Source of the DNA: a virus
Lineage: Duplodnaviria; Heunggongvirae; Uroviricota; Caudoviricetes
Virus record (IMG/VR): IMGVR_UViG_3300023697_000634
Length of the DNA: 21,382 nt
Direction: 5' to 3' (one strand)
Within the stretch, counting starts at the first letter, position 1; each line of letters begins with the position of its first letter. The notes under the pieces were generated by a model. The model was not told where the DNA came from, did no database searches, and saw only the letters and a list, made by a program, of their open reading frames with translations. Shown here in pieces: positions 1-6,696 of the stretch. The position numbers and the translations under genes are program-made.

Positions 1-46
1 CCAAGCATATTTGTGCTTGGGTAGCCGAAGTGGTAGAGGCAAAGAG
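1..46 (+). ncRNA. Circularly permuted tRNA-like module A (truncated by window start)
   Basis: CCAAGCA(1-7) pairs with TGCTTGG(14-20) across a 6-nt loop. 15-46 reads as a tRNA 5' half: GCTTGGG-TA-GCC-GAAGTGGTAGA-GGC-A-AAGAG. The matching acceptor 3' strand lies upstream rather than downstream. The T-arm would lie before the window. Confidence 0.65.
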
Positions 47-51
47 ACGGG

Positions 52-380
52 TACAGAGATCGTTTATCGTGATAGTAGTTGTATTGACCTCACAGACTTA
101 TTGTAAGGGTTTAACTTATCAGCCGGAGAGCTTATCCTTATACTAAACATATAAAGATAAACAAGATTATGCTGGTTCGAGTCCAGCCTGCGTCGCCAAA
201 GTGATACGTAGATTGCTTTGGGACGCAGTGAGCAAATGGTAAAGCTGCTTGTTAATTAATAACACAACGTTATCGTAACGGCCCTAGTGTGCAAAAGTAA
301 GTTAGGCGTGAAGGAATTCACAAGATTCGCTTATACTCAACAGCTACGTTGTATAAGCGGTTCTTCTAAAGCGATCTGTA
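52..380 (+). ncRNA. Putative large structured RNA scaffold carrying module B at its apex
   Basis: Nested long-range helices 52-65/369-380 and 110-119/297-306 enclose 160-165/248-253. Local hairpins at 132-160, 268-280, 308-321 (GGAA tetraloop) and 328-359. No credible ORF. Confidence 0.55.
160..253 (+). ncRNA. Circularly permuted tRNA-like module B (YrlA/Y-RNA-like tRNA mimic)
   Basis: The 3' half comes first: ACAAG(161-165)-ATTAT-GCTGG TTCGAGT CCAGC-CTGCGTC-G-CCA(198). The 5' half follows: GACGCAG(222-228)-TG-AGC AAATGGTAAA GCT-G-CTTGT(248-252). Acceptor (7/7 bp) and anticodon-stem (5/5 bp) strands match perfectly, only in this permuted order. Confidence 0.85.
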
Positions 381-402
381 TTAGATTTCTTCAGAAGAAT
401 TT

Positions 403-477
403 GGACGGTTATTTCAGCGGTAGAATATCACATTGACATTGTGAAGGTCACTGGTTCGATCCCAGTACCGTCCACCA
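403..477 (+). tRNA. trnV: tRNA-Val(GAC)
   Basis: GGACGGT/ACCGTCC acceptor, TCACA-TT GAC AT-TGTGA anticodon arm, TTCGATC T-loop, encoded CCA. Confidence 0.95.
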
Positions 478-498
478 AATTTGAACATATATAATTGT

Positions 499-574
499 AG
501 CGGAGTGGAGAAGTGGTATCTCGTCAGTCTCATAAGCTGAAGATCGGTGGTTCGAATCCGCCCTCTCGCAACCA
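499..574 (+). tRNA. trnM: tRNA-Met(CAT), initiator-like body with irregular acceptor stem
   Basis: fMet-like D-arm (GGAGAAGTGGTATCTC), TCAGT-CT CAT AA-GCTGA, GGTGG/CCGCC T-arm, ends CGCAACCA. Acceptor needs a 1-nt bulge and has a 1:72 mismatch. Confidence 0.85.
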
Positions 575-579
575 AACAT

Positions 580-655
580 TGGCATATAGCTCAGTTGGTA
601 GAGCGTCTGACTGTTAATCAGAATGTCCCTGGTTCGAGCCCAGGTTTGCCAGCCA
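580..655 (+). tRNA. trnN: tRNA-Asn(GTT)
   Basis: TGGCATA/TTTGCCA acceptor, TCTGA-CT GTT AA-TCAGA, G73, CCA. Confidence 0.95.
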
Positions 656-672
656 TTTTAAAAGGAATTAAA

Positions 673-753
673 ATGAAATCAGAAGGTAGCGGTTACGCAG
701 TCGAGGGTTGGGATGATATTACCAACGACGACCTCAATCCAATTGCAATTTAA
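673..753 (+). CDS. 26-aa acidic peptide MKSEGSGYAVEGWDDITNDDLNPIAI
   Basis: AAGGA Shine-Dalgarno ahead of ATG 673. Fills the gap between tRNA-Asn and tRNA-Thr. It is the 3' part of track ORF 547..753. Confidence 0.5.
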   Translation: MKSEGSGYAVEGWDDITNDDLNPIAI

Positions 754-760
754 TTCTTAT

Positions 761-835
761 GCCGGATTAGCTCAGTGGTAGAGCACCCGCCTTGTAAGCG
801 GTAGGTCGTCAGTTCAATCCCGACATCCGGCACCA
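761..835 (+). tRNA. trnT: tRNA-Thr(TGT)
   Basis: GCCGGAT/ATCCGGC acceptor, CCCGC-CT TGT AA-GCGGT, CCA. Confidence 0.95.
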
Positions 836-843
836 AACATAGA

Positions 844-914
844 CGCGGAGAGTCAGGTGAGAGGGCAGTCTCATAAGCTCGTCCTAGAAGGTTCAAATCC
901 TTCCTCCGCAACCA
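844..914 (+). tRNA. Non-canonical tRNA(CAT), fMet-like acceptor, reduced D-arm
   Basis: CGCGGAG/CTCCGCA with C1:A72 mismatch, GAAGG TTCAAAT CCTTC T-arm, CT CAT AA loop, CCA. D region is only about 12 nt and the anticodon stem is extended with a bulge. Confidence 0.7.
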
Positions 915-924
915 AAACACAACT

Positions 925-999
925 GGTGATATAGCCTAGACGGATAGGCGGGGGTCTCATAAGCCTCATAGGTTGGCTCGGTACCAACTATCACCACCA
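925..999 (+). tRNA. tRNA(CAT) (Met or Ile2), unusual T-loop
   Basis: GGTGATA/TATCACC acceptor, GCCT/AGGC D-stem, GGGGT-CT CAT AA-GCCTC, T-loop CTCGGTA, A73-CCA. Confidence 0.85.
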
Positions 1000-1016
1000 A
1001 CACACAGGAGTTCGTT

Positions 1017-1202
1017 ATGTCAGATGGTGGTAAGGGGTCTGCACCAAGACCATTTAGCGTTAGCCAACAAGAATGGGATAATCGCTGGGATGCGATCTTC
1101 TCGCGTGATCTTGAAAAGAAACAAGATGCGCAGAAGAAGATTGAAATGCCAGGCACCACAGGTGGTGCAAAGATCGTTTTTCCCGAAGACGAATCCAAGT
1201 AA
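1017..1202 (+). CDS. Small phage hypothetical protein (MSDGGKGSAPRPFS...RWDAIF type)
   Basis: CAGGAG RBS, 61 aa. N-terminus resembles a motif I recall from aquatic phage small proteins. Confidence 0.8.
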   Translation: MSDGGKGSAPRPFSVSQQEWDNRWDAIFSRDLEKKQDAQKKIEMPGTTGGAKIVFPEDESK

Positions 1203-1208
1203 ATAAAT

Positions 1209-1284
1209 GCCTCGTTAACTCAGCGGTATGAGTAGCTCCCTTACAAGGAGAAGGTCGGCGGTTCGATCCCGTCACGAGGTACCA
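1209..1284 (+). tRNA. trnV: tRNA-Val(TAC)
   Basis: GCCTCGT/ACGAGGT acceptor, CT TAC AA loop, GGCGG TTCGATC CCGTC T-arm, CCA. Confidence 0.93.
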
Positions 1285-1288
1285 AATT

Positions 1289-1362
1289 GCTCTTGTCGTA
1301 TAGTGACATTACACATCCTTGGTACGGATGTTACACGAGTTTGATTCTCGTCGAGAGCACCA
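1289..1362 (+). tRNA. trnT: tRNA-Thr(GGT)
   Basis: GCTCTTG/CGAGAGC acceptor, CATCC-TT GGT AC-GGATG, T-loop TTTGATT, CCA. D-loop lacks the GG. Confidence 0.88.
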
Positions 1363-1363
1363 G

Positions 1364-1392
1364 TTGTCTGTCGATCTGTTATTTCATATAAT
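1364..1392 (+). promoter_or_regulatory. sigma70-type promoter
   Basis: TTGTCT(1364-1369)-N17-TATAAT(1387-1392). Predicted TSS near 1399. Confidence 0.7.
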
Positions 1393-1411
1393 AGACGAAG
1401 ACGAAAGAATT

Positions 1412-1650
1412 TAGAGTAGATACAGCAAACAAACTAATACATGGAGTAACGTCCATGATACTAAAACCCTACCGTGCCCTGAAAGGGGTGGCCGAAAGGT
1501 TGGAGGGAATGCGTTGGCCTAGTAATAGGTCGACTTTGTAGTCTTGCAAGATCAAGGATCGGGCGCCAACGATTGGCGATAGGGTCATGGAGATAGGGCA
1601 AGTGCCCGAAGTGGATGACCAGAAAATAATTTCTGCTCCCCCTACTCTGT
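1412..1650 (+). ncRNA. Structured RNA / 5' leader upstream of TROVE-like gene
   Basis: Closed by AGAGTAG(1413-1419)/CTACTCT(1642-1648). Contains at least 8 hairpins, three capped by GNRA loops (GAAA 1481, GAAA 1494, GTAA 1522). No ORF. Confidence 0.7.
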
Positions 1651-1658
1651 TGTTTAAA

Positions 1659-1735: not shown

Positions 1736-3169
1736 ATGTCAACATTCGCTGAAGCTGTAGTAAACCAAGAAGCCCGTACCACGAATGGTATGGTGGCACG
1801 CAAGTCCACTGCAAATGCGTGCGTCGATCTATTCTTCAAGATCGGTGCTTCACGTGGTAAGGACATCACGAAGGATTTCGTGGCCGCATACGCTGAGAAC
1901 AAAGATGTCGCGTTGCGCATCGCTCAATGGGTCCGTGACGCTCGTGGTGGCGCTGGTGAACGTGAATTGTTCCGCCAAGTTCTGAAGTATCTCGAAAAGC
2001 ACGATAAGGACGCTGCAGCAGCATTGCTGGCTAAAGTGCCTGAAATCGGTCGCTGGGATGACATCTTCGTCTTCGAAGATAAGGACTTGAAGGCCAAGGC
2101 ATTCACAATGTTGGGTGATGCACTCCGTGCAAAGAATGGTCTCGCTGCGAAGTGGACACCTCGCCAAGGTAAACTCGCTGCCGAAATTCGTACATTCTAT
2201 GGAATGTCGCCAAAGTTCTACCGTAAGTCGTTGGTTGAATTGACCAACGTCGTCGAAACACAAATGTGTGCGAAGGACTGGGATGCAATCAACTTCTCGC
2301 ACGTGCCATCCGTGGCCGCTGCTCGTTACAAGAAAGCATTCAACCGTAACACACAAGAATACGCAAAGTATGTTGCTGAATTGATGAAGGATCCAAAAGA
2401 TCGTACAGTCAAAGTCAAGATCAACGCTGGCGCAGTGTTTCCATACGATGTGTTGAAGGGCGTTATCGGTTCATACCGTAACAACTATTCCGCAGCTGAG
2501 CTCGGTGCGCTGCAAGCGCAATGGGATGCGATGGAAAACTTCATCGGTGATGCAAACGTCTTGCCATTGGTAGACGTTTCTGGTTCGATGTCCTGCCGTG
2601 CTGGTGGTTCTGCTTCGCAGAGCACCACAACGTGTATGGATGTTGCAGTGTCGCTTGGTTTGTACCTCGCTGACAAGAACAAGGGTAAGTTCAAGGACAC
2701 GTTCTTGACGTTCTCGGGTTCGCCAGAATTGCTGAACTTGAAGGGCAACATTGTTCAGAAAGTCCAACAAATGGTTTCTTCCAACTGGGGCATGAACACT
2801 AACTTGGTTGCTGCAATGGATAAGATCCTTGCTACGGCTACTAAGGGTGGCGTTCCACAAGAAGAAATGCCAGACATGCTGCTGATCTTGTCTGACATGC
2901 AATTCGACCAATGCGCTCGTTTCGACGATTCCGCAATGCAAATGATTGCACGTAAGTTTGAAGCAGCAGGATACGAACTTCCAAAGATCGTGTTCTGGAA
3001 TTTGAACTCGCACGATAACGTGCCTGTCAAGTATGACACTCGTGGTGTTGCTTTGGTATCTGGCTTCTCGCCAGCTATCATGACGGCAGTACTCGGTGGT
3101 GATGCTGACAAGTTCACACCAGAAGCAATGATGCTTAAGGCAGTGATGATCGACCGTTACGCGATCTAA
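1736..3169 (+). CDS. TROVE/Ro60-like (DUF2828-type) protein with C-terminal vWA domain
   Basis: AAGGAG RBS before ATG 1736 (477 aa). Helical N-terminus with RDARGGAGER and AAKWTPR, MIDAS motif VDVSGSM, ILSDMQFD, PKIVFWNL. Family called from recalled motifs. Confidence 0.8.
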   Translation: MSTFAEAVVNQEARTTNGMVARKSTANACVDLFFKIGASRGKDITKDFVAAYAENKDVALRIAQWVRDARGGAGERELFRQVLKYLEKHDKDAAAALLAKVPEIGRWDDIFVFEDKDLKAKAFTMLGDALRAKNGLAAKWTPRQGKLAAEIRTFYGMSPKFYRKSLVELTNVVETQMCAKDWDAINFSHVPSVAAARYKKAFNRNTQEYAKYVAELMKDPKDRTVKVKINAGAVFPYDVLKGVIGSYRNNYSAAELGALQAQWDAMENFIGDANVLPLVDVSGSMSCRAGGSASQSTTTCMDVAVSLGLYLADKNKGKFKDTFLTFSGSPELLNLKGNIVQKVQQMVSSNWGMNTNLVAAMDKILATATKGGVPQEEMPDMLLILSDMQFDQCARFDDSAMQMIARKFEAAGYELPKIVFWNLNSHDNVPVKYDTRGVALVSGFSPAIMTAVLGGDADKFTPEAMMLKAVMIDRYAI

Positions 3170-3227: not shown

Positions 3228-3698
3228 ATGAAGAAATTAGACCTAGCTGAAGTGAAGAAATTCATCGAAGCGCAATCGCCATCCACAAAGATTTACATCG
3301 GCGCCGACTCAGAGCGCTTTAAAATGGAAGGCAGATGGTATGCTGATTACACACTCGCCGTCGTAATCCACATTGACGGAAACCATGGTTGCAAAATCTT
3401 CGGTGAAGTTCAACGTGAATTAGATTACGACCAAAAGAAGTCTAAGCCAGCAATGCGTTTGATGAATGAAGTCTACAAGGTTTCGGAATTGTTCCAAAAT
3501 CTTGCCGATGTGTTGGAAGATCGTTATGTTGAAGTCCATTTGGACATTAACCCTAACGAAATGTATGGCTCCTCGTGCGTCGTACAACAAGCTATCGGTT
3601 ACATCAAAGGCACGTGTAACGTAACACCGATGGTTAAGCCACGGGCGTTCGCTGCATCATATGCTGCTGACAGACTGAAAGAGGTCCTAGCGGCCTAA
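3228..3698 (+). CDS. RNase H-like protein (DUF458/YkuK type)
   Basis: GAGGT RBS. Motifs IYIGADS, VEVHLDIN and KPRAFAASYAAD carry acidic residues typical of this family. Confidence 0.8.
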   Translation: MKKLDLAEVKKFIEAQSPSTKIYIGADSERFKMEGRWYADYTLAVVIHIDGNHGCKIFGEVQRELDYDQKKSKPAMRLMNEVYKVSELFQNLADVLEDRYVEVHLDINPNEMYGSSCVVQQAIGYIKGTCNVTPMVKPRAFAASYAADRLKEVLAA

Positions 3699-5476: not shown

Positions 5477-5773
5477 ATGAGCGTTATTTGTTTGAAGATG
5501 TCGAGTGGAGAAGAATTGATTGGTACATTGGTCAATGAGACTGATGAGTTTGTCCACATCAAAGAAGTATCTGCCGTCATGATGATGCAAGGCGAAGTTC
5601 CTGGTCAATTCCGCATGGGCCTGATGCCATTTCTTCCATACTCTGAATCAGAAGAATTCACAATCGCGAAGCGAGCTGTCGTTACGCAGTTTGCACCAAG
5701 CATTGAAATGATCAACAACTACAACCGCAAGCATGGCGCTGGCATTCAGGTTGTACAAACCCTCAACGGCTAA
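5477..5773 (+). CDS. Sm-like fold hypothetical protein of T4-like phages
   Basis: LKMSSGEELIG N-terminus, PFLPYS, beta-rich pattern; AAGGA RBS. Confidence 0.65.
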   Translation: MSVICLKMSSGEELIGTLVNETDEFVHIKEVSAVMMMQGEVPGQFRMGLMPFLPYSESEEFTIAKRAVVTQFAPSIEMINNYNRKHGAGIQVVQTLNG

Positions 5774-5775
5774 TT

Positions 5776-6696
5776 ATGAAAATCGCAGTTTGCTCTGACC
5801 TCCATTTGGAGTTTGGTCCAATTTCGTTGGACAACACCGAAGGTGCAGAGGTCTTGATTCTATCTGGCGACATTTGTCTCGCTAAGGAATTGCTGGATCA
5901 CGATCCACATGGACTAGTGCCACATACACGTAGTGCTATGTTCCATACATTCTTTCAGGAATGTAGCGCTCGATTCCCGCATGTGATTTACATTGCTGGC
6001 AACCACGAACACTATCATGGCGACTATGCCAAGTCGCTTCCGAACCTTAAAGAACGTCTCGCGTACCTGAAGAACGTCCATGTCTTGGATAAAGAGGTTC
6101 GTGCTATTGGTGATACTATTTTCATCGGCGGTACGTTGTGGACCGACATGAACAAAGAAGATCCAAACACTTTGTTTGCAATCAAAGGGTACATGAACGA
6201 CTACAAGATCATTGAAGACAGTAGTGAAGTAGTTCACTATAAGGTTTACCATGATAAGATGAAGAGTGTTGGTATGACTGATGAGGAGTGGGTTGCACTT
6301 CCACCAGAAGATCGTGTGTACGTTGAATTCAAGACACGCCCTGCCAAATTTTCACCCGAAAAGTCAGTGGAAGACCACAAGAAGATGTTGGAGTTCATTC
6401 GCACTACCATCGCGACGAACCCTTTCAGCAAGTTTGTGATAGTCGGACATCACGCTCCGTGCAAGATGTCAACGAAACCACAATATGAAAAGGACGTAGT
6501 TGTCAATGGTGCATACAGCTCTGACCTATCGGAATTCATCCTGGACCATCCACAAATCAAAGTATGGACACATGGACACACCCATGATGTATACGACTAC
6601 CTAGTTGGAACAACTCGAGTAGTATGCAATCCTCGTGGGTACATTGCATATGAAGATCGAGCGGATCGATTCGAACTCAAGTTCCTAGACGTTTGA
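5776..6696 (+). CDS. Calcineurin-like metallophosphoesterase
   Basis: SDLH, SGD, GNHE, GHH and HGHTH motifs. Confidence 0.93.
   Translation: MKIAVCSDLHLEFGPISLDNTEGAEVLILSGDICLAKELLDHDPHGLVPHTRSAMFHTFFQECSARFPHVIYIAGNHEHYHGDYAKSLPNLKERLAYLKNVHVLDKEVRAIGDTIFIGGTLWTDMNKEDPNTLFAIKGYMNDYKIIEDSSEVVHYKVYHDKMKSVGMTDEEWVALPPEDRVYVEFKTRPAKFSPEKSVEDHKKMLEFIRTTIATNPFSKFVIVGHHAPCKMSTKPQYEKDVVVNGAYSSDLSEFILDHPQIKVWTHGHTHDVYDYLVGTTRVVCNPRGYIAYEDRADRFELKFLDV

What the first reader, a model, noticed from the sequence alone, without database searches (positions are those of the whole stretch)
1..46. A second permuted tRNA-like module in tandem
Seen: CCAAGCA(1-7) pairs with TGCTTGG(14-20), and 15-46 is a D-arm half (GCC-GAAGTGGTAGA-GGC) followed by AAGAG-AC, again without U33. 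Its sequence differs from module B and its acceptor loop is only 6 nt with no CCA. Inference: two independent permuted modules make a one-off rearrangement unlikely and suggest an array or a multi-domain RNA with several tRNA-shaped heads.
Basis: partly seen in the sequence, partly recalled or inferred. Interest (0 to 1): 0.8.

Follow-up and report, generated by a model that had tools for sequence, protein, structure and literature searches.

The report
Truncated head of double tRNA-mimic RNA
Bases 1-46 are the cut-off end of the first of two tRNA-shaped "heads" of a non-coding RNA that always follows one protein gene of unknown function (DUF7873) in phages and bacteria. It is built like a Y RNA, but it does not travel with the usual Y-RNA partner protein, Ro60.

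Summary
Two assemblies that are 100% identical to window 8-787 extend upstream. In those assemblies the acceptor-like hairpin is a 17-bp predicted stem with a 7-nt loop. The window's "6-nt loop" (nt 1-7 joined to nt 8) was seen in no other assembly or run.

Window 1-101 is the 3' part of domain 1 of a two-domain RNA. It comprises the acceptor 5' strand, the D-arm, a closing helix (not an anticodon stem) and the descending strand of a long basal stem. Domain 2 is window about 108-308.

A covariance model built from the two heads finds them directly downstream of DUF7873:
- 12 of 13 informative metagenomic phage loci
- 8 of 8 cultured phages
- 32 of 40 bacterial loci

They are usually in pairs. 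Pairing holds in 96.9% of cells, against 58% when shuffled.

The topology is that of YrlA, but Rfam scores are sub-threshold, and five complete phage genomes with the cassette lack any Ro60 gene. Metatranscriptome contigs end at the CCA and begin at G1 of head 2. This is a weak hint of RNase P-type processing.

This scan has found the same RNA before on other DNA. I found no paper or Rfam family for it.

The parts
1..7 (+). Copy of the acceptor-like 3' strand (CCAAGCA), joined directly to nt 8. This junction lacks 19 nt that are present in identical contigs, so it is a deletion variant or a contig-end artefact.
8..13 (+). 3' side of the distal extension of the acceptor-like hairpin (UAUUUG). 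In the full RNA it pairs with CAAAUA.
14..21 (+). Acceptor-like 5' strand of head 1 (UGCUUGGG). G21 pairs with the U (window phage) or C (L001) that precedes CCAAGCA.
24..40 (+). D-arm of head 1: a 3-bp stem GCC/GGC with an 11-nt loop GAAGUGGUAGA carrying the conserved GG. It is class II (tRNA-Leu-like) in style.
42..46 (+). 3' strand of the closing helix (AAGAG). It pairs with CUCU(A) upstream of the window. This helix takes the place of the anticodon stem, and no loop follows it.
47..101 (+). Descending (3') strand of the long imperfect basal stem of domain 1. Its partner strand lies upstream of the window (L082 2164-2222). It contains AUCGUUUAUCGU motifs.
   Evidence: compensatory changes between L001 and L081 are read directly
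108..308 (+). Domain 2. The basal stem is 110-119 with 297-306 (U-G in the window becomes U-A in L001). The head-2 core is 161-252: closing helix ACAAG/CUUGU, T-arm 171-187, acceptor 188-194 with 222-228, then G195 and CCA 196-198, and a D-arm at 231-246.
196..222 (+). Candidate processing sites in head 2. An RNA contig ends at A198 (the CCA end). RNA contigs of two studies begin at G222 (G1 of the acceptor 5' strand). The 23-nt loop 199-221 is uncovered in one metatranscriptome.
   Evidence: L081 coordinates = window + 5448

Best explanation
Window 1-101 is the 3' two-thirds of domain 1 of a roughly 410-nt, two-domain non-coding RNA encoded directly after the phage gene DUF7873. That gene lies just upstream of the window.

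Each domain is a long imperfect basal stem capped by a tRNA-shaped head. The head has a closing helix, a 5-nt linker, a T-arm, an acceptor-like stem closed into a hairpin, and a D-arm. It has no anticodon arm. This is the YrlA (bacterial Y RNA) topology.

Shown here:
- the structure and its covariation
- its strict linkage to DUF7873
- its independence from any phage Ro60 gene in five complete phage genomes
- its presence in RNA libraries

Inferred:
- The RNA is transcribed together with DUF7873.
- DUF7873 binds the basal stems.
- The heads are read by tRNA-handling enzymes. At least head 2 is opened by an RNase P-type cut 5' of G1 and trimmed to its encoded CCA, giving a two-piece tRNA mimic.
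- The particle acts on tRNA-centred processes, as a scaffold or as a decoy. This would fit its place inside phage tRNA clusters.
For: Upstream half:
- Contigs identical to the window carry the predicted upstream half.

Fold:
- The MFE fold equals the centroid and recovers the permuted cloverleaf on a long stem: z -4.62, with 0 of 200 shuffles folding as well.

Covariation:
- 96.9% of cells pair, against 58.3% when shuffled and 41-48% in slid controls. 18 of 20 pairs show double changes. The covariation score is 0.96 against 0.22.

Linkage to DUF7873:
- Model R1 hits lie 35-600 nt downstream of DUF7873 on the same strand in 12 of 13 informative metagenomic phage loci, 8 of 8 cultured phages and 32 of 40 bacterial loci.
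- Most of these carry two hits.
- Among the 80 loci fetched through the Ro60-like gene, only the one that also carries DUF7873 (L001) has the modules. The two contigs identical to the window, L081 and L082, have both as well.

YrlA likeness:
- The YrlA model hits head 2 at 29-38 bits, E down to 6e-5.

No Ro60 needed:
- No TROVE gene in five complete phage genomes with the cassette, and the positive controls for that search rang.
- No DUF2828 gene was found either.

Head classes:
- Head 1 always has discriminator A and a tRNA-Leu-like D-arm.
- Head 2 mostly has G or U followed by CCA.

RNA:
- Three freshwater metatranscriptomes hold the stretch at 100% identity.
- Their contigs run from the DUF7873 ORF into the RNA.
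- They end at A198 (the CCA end) and start at G222 (G1).
Against: - No binding, cleavage or functional datum exists.
- The RNA evidence comes from assembled contigs, which the tool itself rates as a weak hint. One run (X17) carries the unprocessed loop at its highest depth, and DNA carry-over in RNA libraries cannot be excluded.
- The window's own heads do not reach the YrlA model even at E 10. Relatives stay far below the gathering score of 69 bits.
- The DUF7873 model has no recognisable RNA-binding fold.
- In this phage a Ro60-like gene lies 1.7 kb downstream on the same strand, so a link to it is not excluded here.
- 8 of 40 bacterial DUF7873 loci gave no hit at E 0.01.
Confidence: 0.85

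Rival explanations
1. It is a Y RNA (YrlA type) that serves the phage's own Ro60-like protein (DUF2828/DUF7788, window 1736-3169), as in classical Ro60-Y RNA pairs.
For: - The topology is that of YrlA.
- The gene lies 1.7 kb downstream on the same strand. Its model matches Ro60 structures: twelve PDB hits at E <= 0.001, E down to 2e-10, TM mostly 0.5-0.65, with a conserved MIDAS motif.
- Y RNAs are normally found within 4 kb of Ro60 on the same strand (PMC4201824).
- The Ro60-like gp130 of phage Bas63 sits next to tRNA genes, and its authors proposed that it has Y RNA partners (PMC11482910).
Against: - 79 of 80 loci fetched through this protein lack the modules. They carry a different family of 'handle' RNAs instead.
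- The modules track DUF7873.
- Five complete phage genomes with the cassette have neither TROVE nor DUF2828.
- The GNCGAAN0-1G Ro-site motif occurs only inside the D-arm.
Confidence: 0.08
2. It is a true circularly permuted tRNA gene, as in Cyanidioschyzon merolae or Thermofilum. Its transcript would be circularised and re-opened at the acceptor end to give a working tRNA.
For: - The order is 3' half, then linker, then 5' half.
- Head 2 encodes N73-CCA after a 7-bp acceptor stem.
- RNA contig ends fall at CCA and at G1.
Against: - There is no anticodon loop. The helix in the anticodon-stem position continues into a covarying basal stem.
- I looked for pairing that could form a splice junction around the supposed break and saw none, only by eye.
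- Head 1 of this phage has lost the CCA and has a 17-bp closed hairpin.
Confidence: 0.03
3. It is a decayed tRNA duplicate, or a chance T-arm/D-arm juxtaposition of the kind the model also reports at junctions between adjacent tRNA genes.
For: - Most weak R1 hits in the tRNA clusters are tRNA-tRNA junctions.
- Chen et al. warn of the same artefact (PMC4201824).
Against: - ARAGORN finds no tRNA here.
- The acceptor strands pair with each other across the loop in 18 of 18 copies, with 3-5 pair types per position.
- The element is conserved after one gene across phages of several bacterial phyla and bacteria of several phyla.
Confidence: 0.02

Closest known systems
YrlA (Y RNA-like A; Rfam RF02553), partner of bacterial and mycobacteriophage Ro60/Rsr (Chen et al. 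2014, PMC4201824; structure preprint 10.1101/312249)
   Same: - The order of elements is the same: basal stem, closing helix, linker, T-arm, closed acceptor-like hairpin, D-arm.
- T-loop and D-loop nucleotides are conserved.
- Tandem RNAs arise from one locus.
- M. smegmatis YrlA, which has a 7-bp acceptor stem, is cut by RNase P and receives CCA. This parallels the hints for head 2.
- Head 2 of relatives gives full-length sub-threshold hits to RF02553.
   Different: - Scores are 29-38 bits against a gathering score of 69. The window's own heads give no hit at E 10.
- There are two heads per RNA, with distinct conserved classes.
- The Ro-site motif is not in the stem.
- The conserved neighbour is DUF7873, not Ro60. 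Phage genomes with the cassette lack Ro60.
Circularly permuted tRNA genes of Cyanidioschyzon merolae and other algae/archaea (recalled from memory; mentioned in PMC4238349)
   Same: The gene order is 3' half, then linker, then 5' half. The acceptor strands are joined by a short linker that can carry CCA.
   Different: Those genes encode a complete tRNA with an anticodon loop, restored by circularisation at a bulge-helix-bulge junction. Here there is no anticodon arm, and the ends form a long stem.
Two-piece (permuted) tmRNA, Rfam RF04321 / RF01850
   Same: - The order is T-arm, acceptor 3' strand, CCA, excised loop, acceptor 5' strand.
- Weak model hits fall over exactly this segment.
- Head 1 of Gordonia phage GodonK even has G3-U70, A73 and CCA.
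   Different: - There is no tag reading frame and there are no pseudoknots.
- ARAGORN finds no tmRNA.
- G3-U70 is not general among the heads.
- A full D-arm is present.
'Handle' RNAs beside the phage Ro60-like gene (window 1413-1651; seen here in 76 of 83 sources searched)
   Same: - They lie on the same strand, in the same tRNA clusters.
- Some cores are also permuted tRNA mimics.
   Different: - They have a different frame: 5' UUUAGG-N5-UCAGCAA ... N5-CCUGUUG 3', with a possible pseudoknot.
- They are linked to DUF2828, not DUF7873.
- Heads 1 and 2 lack this frame.

Membership tests
YrlA / bacterial Y RNA (RF02553) | Topology: basal stem, closing helix, T-arm, closed acceptor-like stem-loop and D-arm, in that 5'-to-3' order | tested here: met
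   MFE folds, covariation, and the consensus structure line of RF02553
YrlA / bacterial Y RNA (RF02553) | Score at or above Rfam's gathering threshold (69 bits) | tested here: not met
   The window gives no YrlA hit over 1-420 at E <= 10. Head 2 of relatives scores 29.3-38.2 bits.
YrlA / bacterial Y RNA (RF02553) | Encoded within about 4 kb of a Ro60/TROVE gene on the same strand (PMC4201824) | tested here: not met
   In this window a Ro60-like gene is 1.7 kb away. Across relatives, however, the RNA follows DUF7873. Five complete phage genomes with the cassette have no TROVE gene, with controls positive, and no DUF2828 gene.
YrlA / bacterial Y RNA (RF02553) | GNCGAAN0-1G motif in the 5' strand of the Ro-binding stem | tested here: not met
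   The only match in L082 2156-2667 is GCCGAAG, inside the D-arm of head 1
YrlA / bacterial Y RNA (RF02553) | Bound by Ro60/Rsr in vivo | not testable with these tools
   Needs immunoprecipitation
Circularly permuted tRNA gene | Both halves together give a complete tRNA with a 7-nt anticodon loop after joining | tested here: not met
   The closing helix continues into a basal stem. No loop residues are available.
Circularly permuted tRNA gene | Acceptor strands joined by a linker that is removed by RNase P and 3' processing | tested here: inconclusive
   For head 2, RNA contig ends fall at CCA and G1, but these are contigs only. Head 1 of this phage has no CCA.
Two-piece tmRNA | Tag reading frame, pseudoknots and the G3-U70 alanine identity pair | tested here: not met
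   ARAGORN finds none. Only 19-25-bit partial model hits. G3-U70 is seen in only one relative.
DUF7873-linked double tRNA-mimic RNA (unnamed; defined by this scan) | Lies directly downstream of a DUF7873 (PF25283) gene on the same strand | tested here: met
   L082 gene 1385-2155 is followed by heads at 2219-2311 and 2426-2517. The same layout is seen.
DUF7873-linked double tRNA-mimic RNA (unnamed; defined by this scan) | Two heads of distinct classes: head 1 with A73 and a class II-like D-arm, head 2 with a class I D-arm and N73-CCA | tested here: met
   Table of 27 parsed heads

The most novel reading that the evidence does not exclude
The RNA is matured into a nicked, two-piece double tRNA mimic with genuine CCA 3' ends, by an RNase P cut at G1 and trimming to the encoded CCA. 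Together with DUF7873 it forms a Ro60-independent particle. That particle would engage enzymes or toxins that act on the tRNA acceptor end or elbow, for example as a decoy that shields tRNAs during phage-host conflict or as a chargeable mimic. Head 1 carries A73 and a tRNA-Leu-like D-arm.
Probability: 0.2. Interest if true: 0.85.

Novelty: new variant of a known kind. Interest (0 to 1): 0.68.

Why it matters
Y RNAs are the only well-studied RNAs that mimic tRNA in order to steer a protein partner, and they are defined by Ro60. Here the same architecture is doubled and tied to a different, uncharacterised protein in phages and in at least five bacterial phyla (by the record names). This implies a second, Ro-independent class of tRNA-mimic particle.

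Its position inside phage tRNA clusters, and the hint that tRNA-processing enzymes open it, make it directly testable in cultured systems such as phiRSL1, the Gordonia phages and Klebsiella phage FBKp24.

For annotation, about 400 nt of 'empty' DNA after every DUF7873 gene can now be labelled.

Tried and rejected
- Close matches in cultured phages. A megablast of window 1-1400 against phage records found only tRNA matches. The exact 40-mer of nt 1-40 is absent from viral contigs, as expected if nt 1-7 are not natural.
- No whole genome is held for the window.
- A hand-written descriptor scan was too noisy once relaxed.
- Model R1 reports many tRNA-tRNA junctions. I removed these by overlap with ARAGORN calls.
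- BLASTN of window 1-420 against the 80 Ro60-like loci found only L001.
- Fold of DUF7873:
  - Foldseek against the PDB gave nothing at E <= 0.001.
  - VIA-align wide gave only generic helical matches, with Z no higher than 8.5.
  - The ESM Atlas returned only its own family.
- Literature:
  - Searches for DUF2828 and for permuted tRNAs in phages gave nothing relevant.
- The RNA contig end at L081 5699 (window 251) coincides, in run X17, with a 30-base overlap shared by three contigs. There it looks like a branch point of the assembly rather than an RNA end. I do not count it as an RNA end.
- Parts of the stretch without RNA contig cover (L081 5443-5523 in X17, 5713-5793 in X16) prove nothing.

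Full report
**Observation**

Window 1-46 reads CCAAGCA TATTTG TGCTTGG GT A GCC GAAGTGGTAGA GGC A AAGAG. ARAGORN and Rfam call only ordinary tRNAs from position 403 onward and nothing in 1-402.

No whole genome is held for the window, so I looked for the same DNA elsewhere. A 39-base word from nt 14-52 recovered a JGI contig, L081. A look-up of the identical downstream protein recovered a 237,764-nt ENA contig, L082. L081 is identical to window 8-787 at all 780 positions. Both contigs extend upstream and read...GTGCCTG ATAA CTCT A AATTT GGTGG TTCGAGT CCATC T CCAAGCA CAAATAGTAGTGATAGTAT TATTTG TGCTTGG....

It is met.

The window's first seven bases are a different matter. They stand where the identical contigs have ATAGTAT, so the window lacks 19 nt of the hairpin. 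L001 (94% identical) also has the long form. No deletion was reported in a DNA run or in the RNA runs that cover the place. The '6-nt loop without CCA' is therefore a deletion variant or a contig-end artefact.

**Anatomy**

Folded alone, L082 2160-2372 gives an MFE structure identical to the centroid: -66 kcal/mol, z -4.62, with 0 of 200 shuffles folding as well. From the outside in, it contains:
- a long imperfect basal stem
- a closing helix, CUCU/AGAG
- a 5-6-nt linker
- the T-arm
- a 17-bp acceptor-like hairpin with a 7-nt loop
- a two-base spacer
- the D-arm

AAGAG is therefore not half of an anticodon stem. After one unpaired A it continues as CGGGUAC, which pairs with GUGCCUG upstream. 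In L001 this helix is GCACCUG/CGGGUGU, which is a compensatory change.

In window coordinates, 42-101 is the descending strand of this stem.

Domain 2 (window about 108-308) has its own basal stem, 110-119 with 297-306. It has U-G pairs in the window and U-A pairs in L001. Its head core is 161-252, with G195 and CCA at 196-198 after the 7-bp acceptor strand.

**What it travels with**

The ORF at window 1736-3169 is DUF2828 plus DUF7788. Its AlphaFold model (pLDDT 89) matches Ro60 structures: twelve hits at E <= 0.001, E down to 2e-10, TM mostly 0.5-0.65. It has a conserved MIDAS motif.

This suggested a Y RNA, and 80 related loci were fetched through this protein. BLASTN and a covariance model of the two heads (R1) then found the heads in only one of the 80, L001, plus the two contigs identical to the window. 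These are exactly the sources that also carry the upstream gene DUF7873 (PF25283).

Fetching loci through DUF7873 reversed the picture. R1 hits fall on the same strand, 35-600 nt after the gene:

| Source | Loci with R1 hits |
|---|---|
| Metagenomic phage loci (informative) | 12 of 13 |
| Cultured phages | 8 of 8 |
| Bacterial loci | 32 of 40 |

- The eight cultured phages are phiRSL1, Klebsiella FBKp24, Rhizobium TM16, Gordonia Fryberger and GodonK, Arthrobacter Mimi, Vibrio D517 and Pseudanabaena PA-SR01. The RNA region is not annotated as such in these records. In FBKp24 it is partly overlapped by a doubtful 'tRNA-OTHER' call, and in three other records by short hypothetical ORFs.
- The bacterial loci come from Actinomadura, Actinocorallia, Saprospiraceae, Abditibacterium, Raineyaceae, Pirellulaceae, Calothrix and Spirochaetales.
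- Twenty bacterial loci have two hits.
- Five complete phage genomes with the cassette contain no TROVE gene, and the positive controls for that search rang in Deinococcus and Bacteroides. They also gave no match to a DUF2828 profile.

**Is the structure selected?**

On the model-based alignment of 21 hits:
- 96.9% of cells form standard pairs, against 58.3% after shuffling and 41-48% when partners are slid.
- 18 of 20 pairs show changes on both sides.
- The covariation score is 0.96 against 0.22.
- Every one of the four helices has compensatory pairs.

After removing one handle-RNA hit and two tRNA-junction rows, all seven acceptor pairs are paired in 18 of 18 copies, with 3-5 pair types each.

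The two heads are distinct, conserved classes:
- Head 1 always has discriminator A and a 3-bp D-stem with a tRNA-Leu-like loop (GGCGGAAUUGGUAGACGC in several). It has ACCA plus 3-6 nt as the whole loop in actinophages, FBKp24 and one metagenomic locus (L099). In the window phage it has a long closed hairpin without CCA.
- Head 2 has a class I D-arm and mostly G or U followed by CCA.

**Relation to YrlA**

The consensus structure of RF02553 has the same order of elements. Head 2 of six cultured phages gives hits of 29-38 bits (E 6e-5 to 0.02), full-length in five. These stay well below the 69-bit gathering score. The window's own heads give nothing at E 10. The Ro-site motif GNCGAAN0-1G occurs only inside the D-arm.

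So the RNA works like a YrlA in shape but fails three of the four membership features that I could test.

**RNA evidence**

The stretch occurs at 100% identity in contigs of three freshwater metatranscriptomes from three studies. Contigs run from inside the DUF7873 ORF into the RNA, which fits co-transcription.

The detail by run is as follows (L081 coordinates = window + 5448):
- **X11:** one contig ends at L081 5646, which is window A198, the A of the encoded CCA. The next begins at 5670, which is window G222, G1 of the acceptor 5' strand. The 23-nt loop between them is uncovered.
- **X17:** a contig also begins at 5670, and a low-depth contig joins foreign sequence exactly there. The loop-containing form is present at high depth.
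- **X17, head 1:** another contig ends one base past CCAAGCA of head 1.

A DNA run reads through all these places.

The tool rates contig ends as a weak hint only. Still, they fall on the two positions that RNase P cleavage and CCA-end trimming would predict, as was shown biochemically for M. smegmatis YrlA (PMC4201824).

**Mechanism**

I commit to the following reading: a DUF7873-bound, two-domain tRNA-mimic RNA whose heads are handled by tRNA-processing enzymes.
- The structure and the gene linkage are shown.
- Transcription is supported.
- Processing is hinted.
- Protein binding and biological role are inferred.

DUF7873 itself has a confident model (pLDDT 86.6) with no recognisable fold and an invariant YEATDKHPAQ motif.

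**Prior knowledge**

After reaching this reading I consulted the scan's notes. The same RNA-gene pair has been reported many times on other DNA. Head 2 of this very window was filed the same way.

I found no Rfam family and no paper for it. A preprint on phage Bas63 proposes Y RNAs for a Ro60-like protein next to tRNA genes (PMC11482910). That concerns the other RNA family noted below.

What this report adds:
- proof of the upstream half of head 1
- the artefactual left edge of the window
- the head-class table
- the first transcript and processing hints

Noticed in passing
window 1413-1651 (and 219 units in 76 of 83 sources searched, e.g. L009 3074-3188, L024 5932-5995): A second RNA family lies beside the Ro60-like gene, always on the + strand. 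It is framed by 5' UUUAGG-N5-UCAGCAA ... N5'-CCUGUUG-UUU 3', with a covarying stem and a possible CAAC/GUUG pseudoknot. The cores range from 50-69-nt anticodon-stem-loop mimics (loops CUUUUAA, CUUGUAA, CUUCUAA, CUGUUAA, CUGCAAA) to whole permuted tRNA mimics and 240-nt RNAs.
   Followed up: partly
window 1736-3169: The DUF2828/DUF7788 protein is a Ro60-like ring plus a vWA domain with a MIDAS motif. The twelve PDB hits at E <= 0.001 are all Ro60/TROVE, including phage phiLo Ro60. Homologues occur in 707 phage records and are annotated 'Ro-like RNA binding protein' in mycobacteriophages.
   Followed up: yes
window 3228-3698: An RNase H-like protein (PF04308) is encoded directly after the Ro60-like gene. 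The pairing is kept in L082 and L083.
   Followed up: no
window 844-911: A weak tRNA-like match (RF00005, 18.6 bits, below threshold) with a CAU anticodon-loop look and a normal T-arm. ARAGORN does not call it. It may be a degenerate or unusual tRNA-Met-like gene between two ordinary tRNAs.
   Followed up: no
L109 3355-3426 (Gordonia phage GodonK, head 1): The acceptor GCGGGGG/CCCCUGC has a G3-U70 wobble, A73 and CCA, and the whole loop is ACCACAU. This is the alanine/tmRNA identity set, and the permuted-tmRNA model gives a weak hit. It is not general among the heads.
   Followed up: partly
flanks of the heads, e.g. window 61-75, 266-280; L102 and L088 flanks: Recurrent UUAUCG(U/C) words (UUAUCGUAAC in both the window phage and phiRSL1) occur in the basal stems. 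AGACUAA words follow head 2 in actinophage and some metagenomic loci. These are candidate protein-binding sites.
   Followed up: no
L001 5091-5510: An HNH endonuclease ORF sits inside the tRNA cluster of the 94%-identical relative and is absent from the window.
   Followed up: no
L104 3518-3597 (Klebsiella phage FBKp24): The record annotates a 'tRNA-OTHER / tRNA-Sup-TTA' that overlaps the start of head 2 of the DUF7873-linked RNA. This is probably a mis-call of the tRNA mimic.
   Followed up: no
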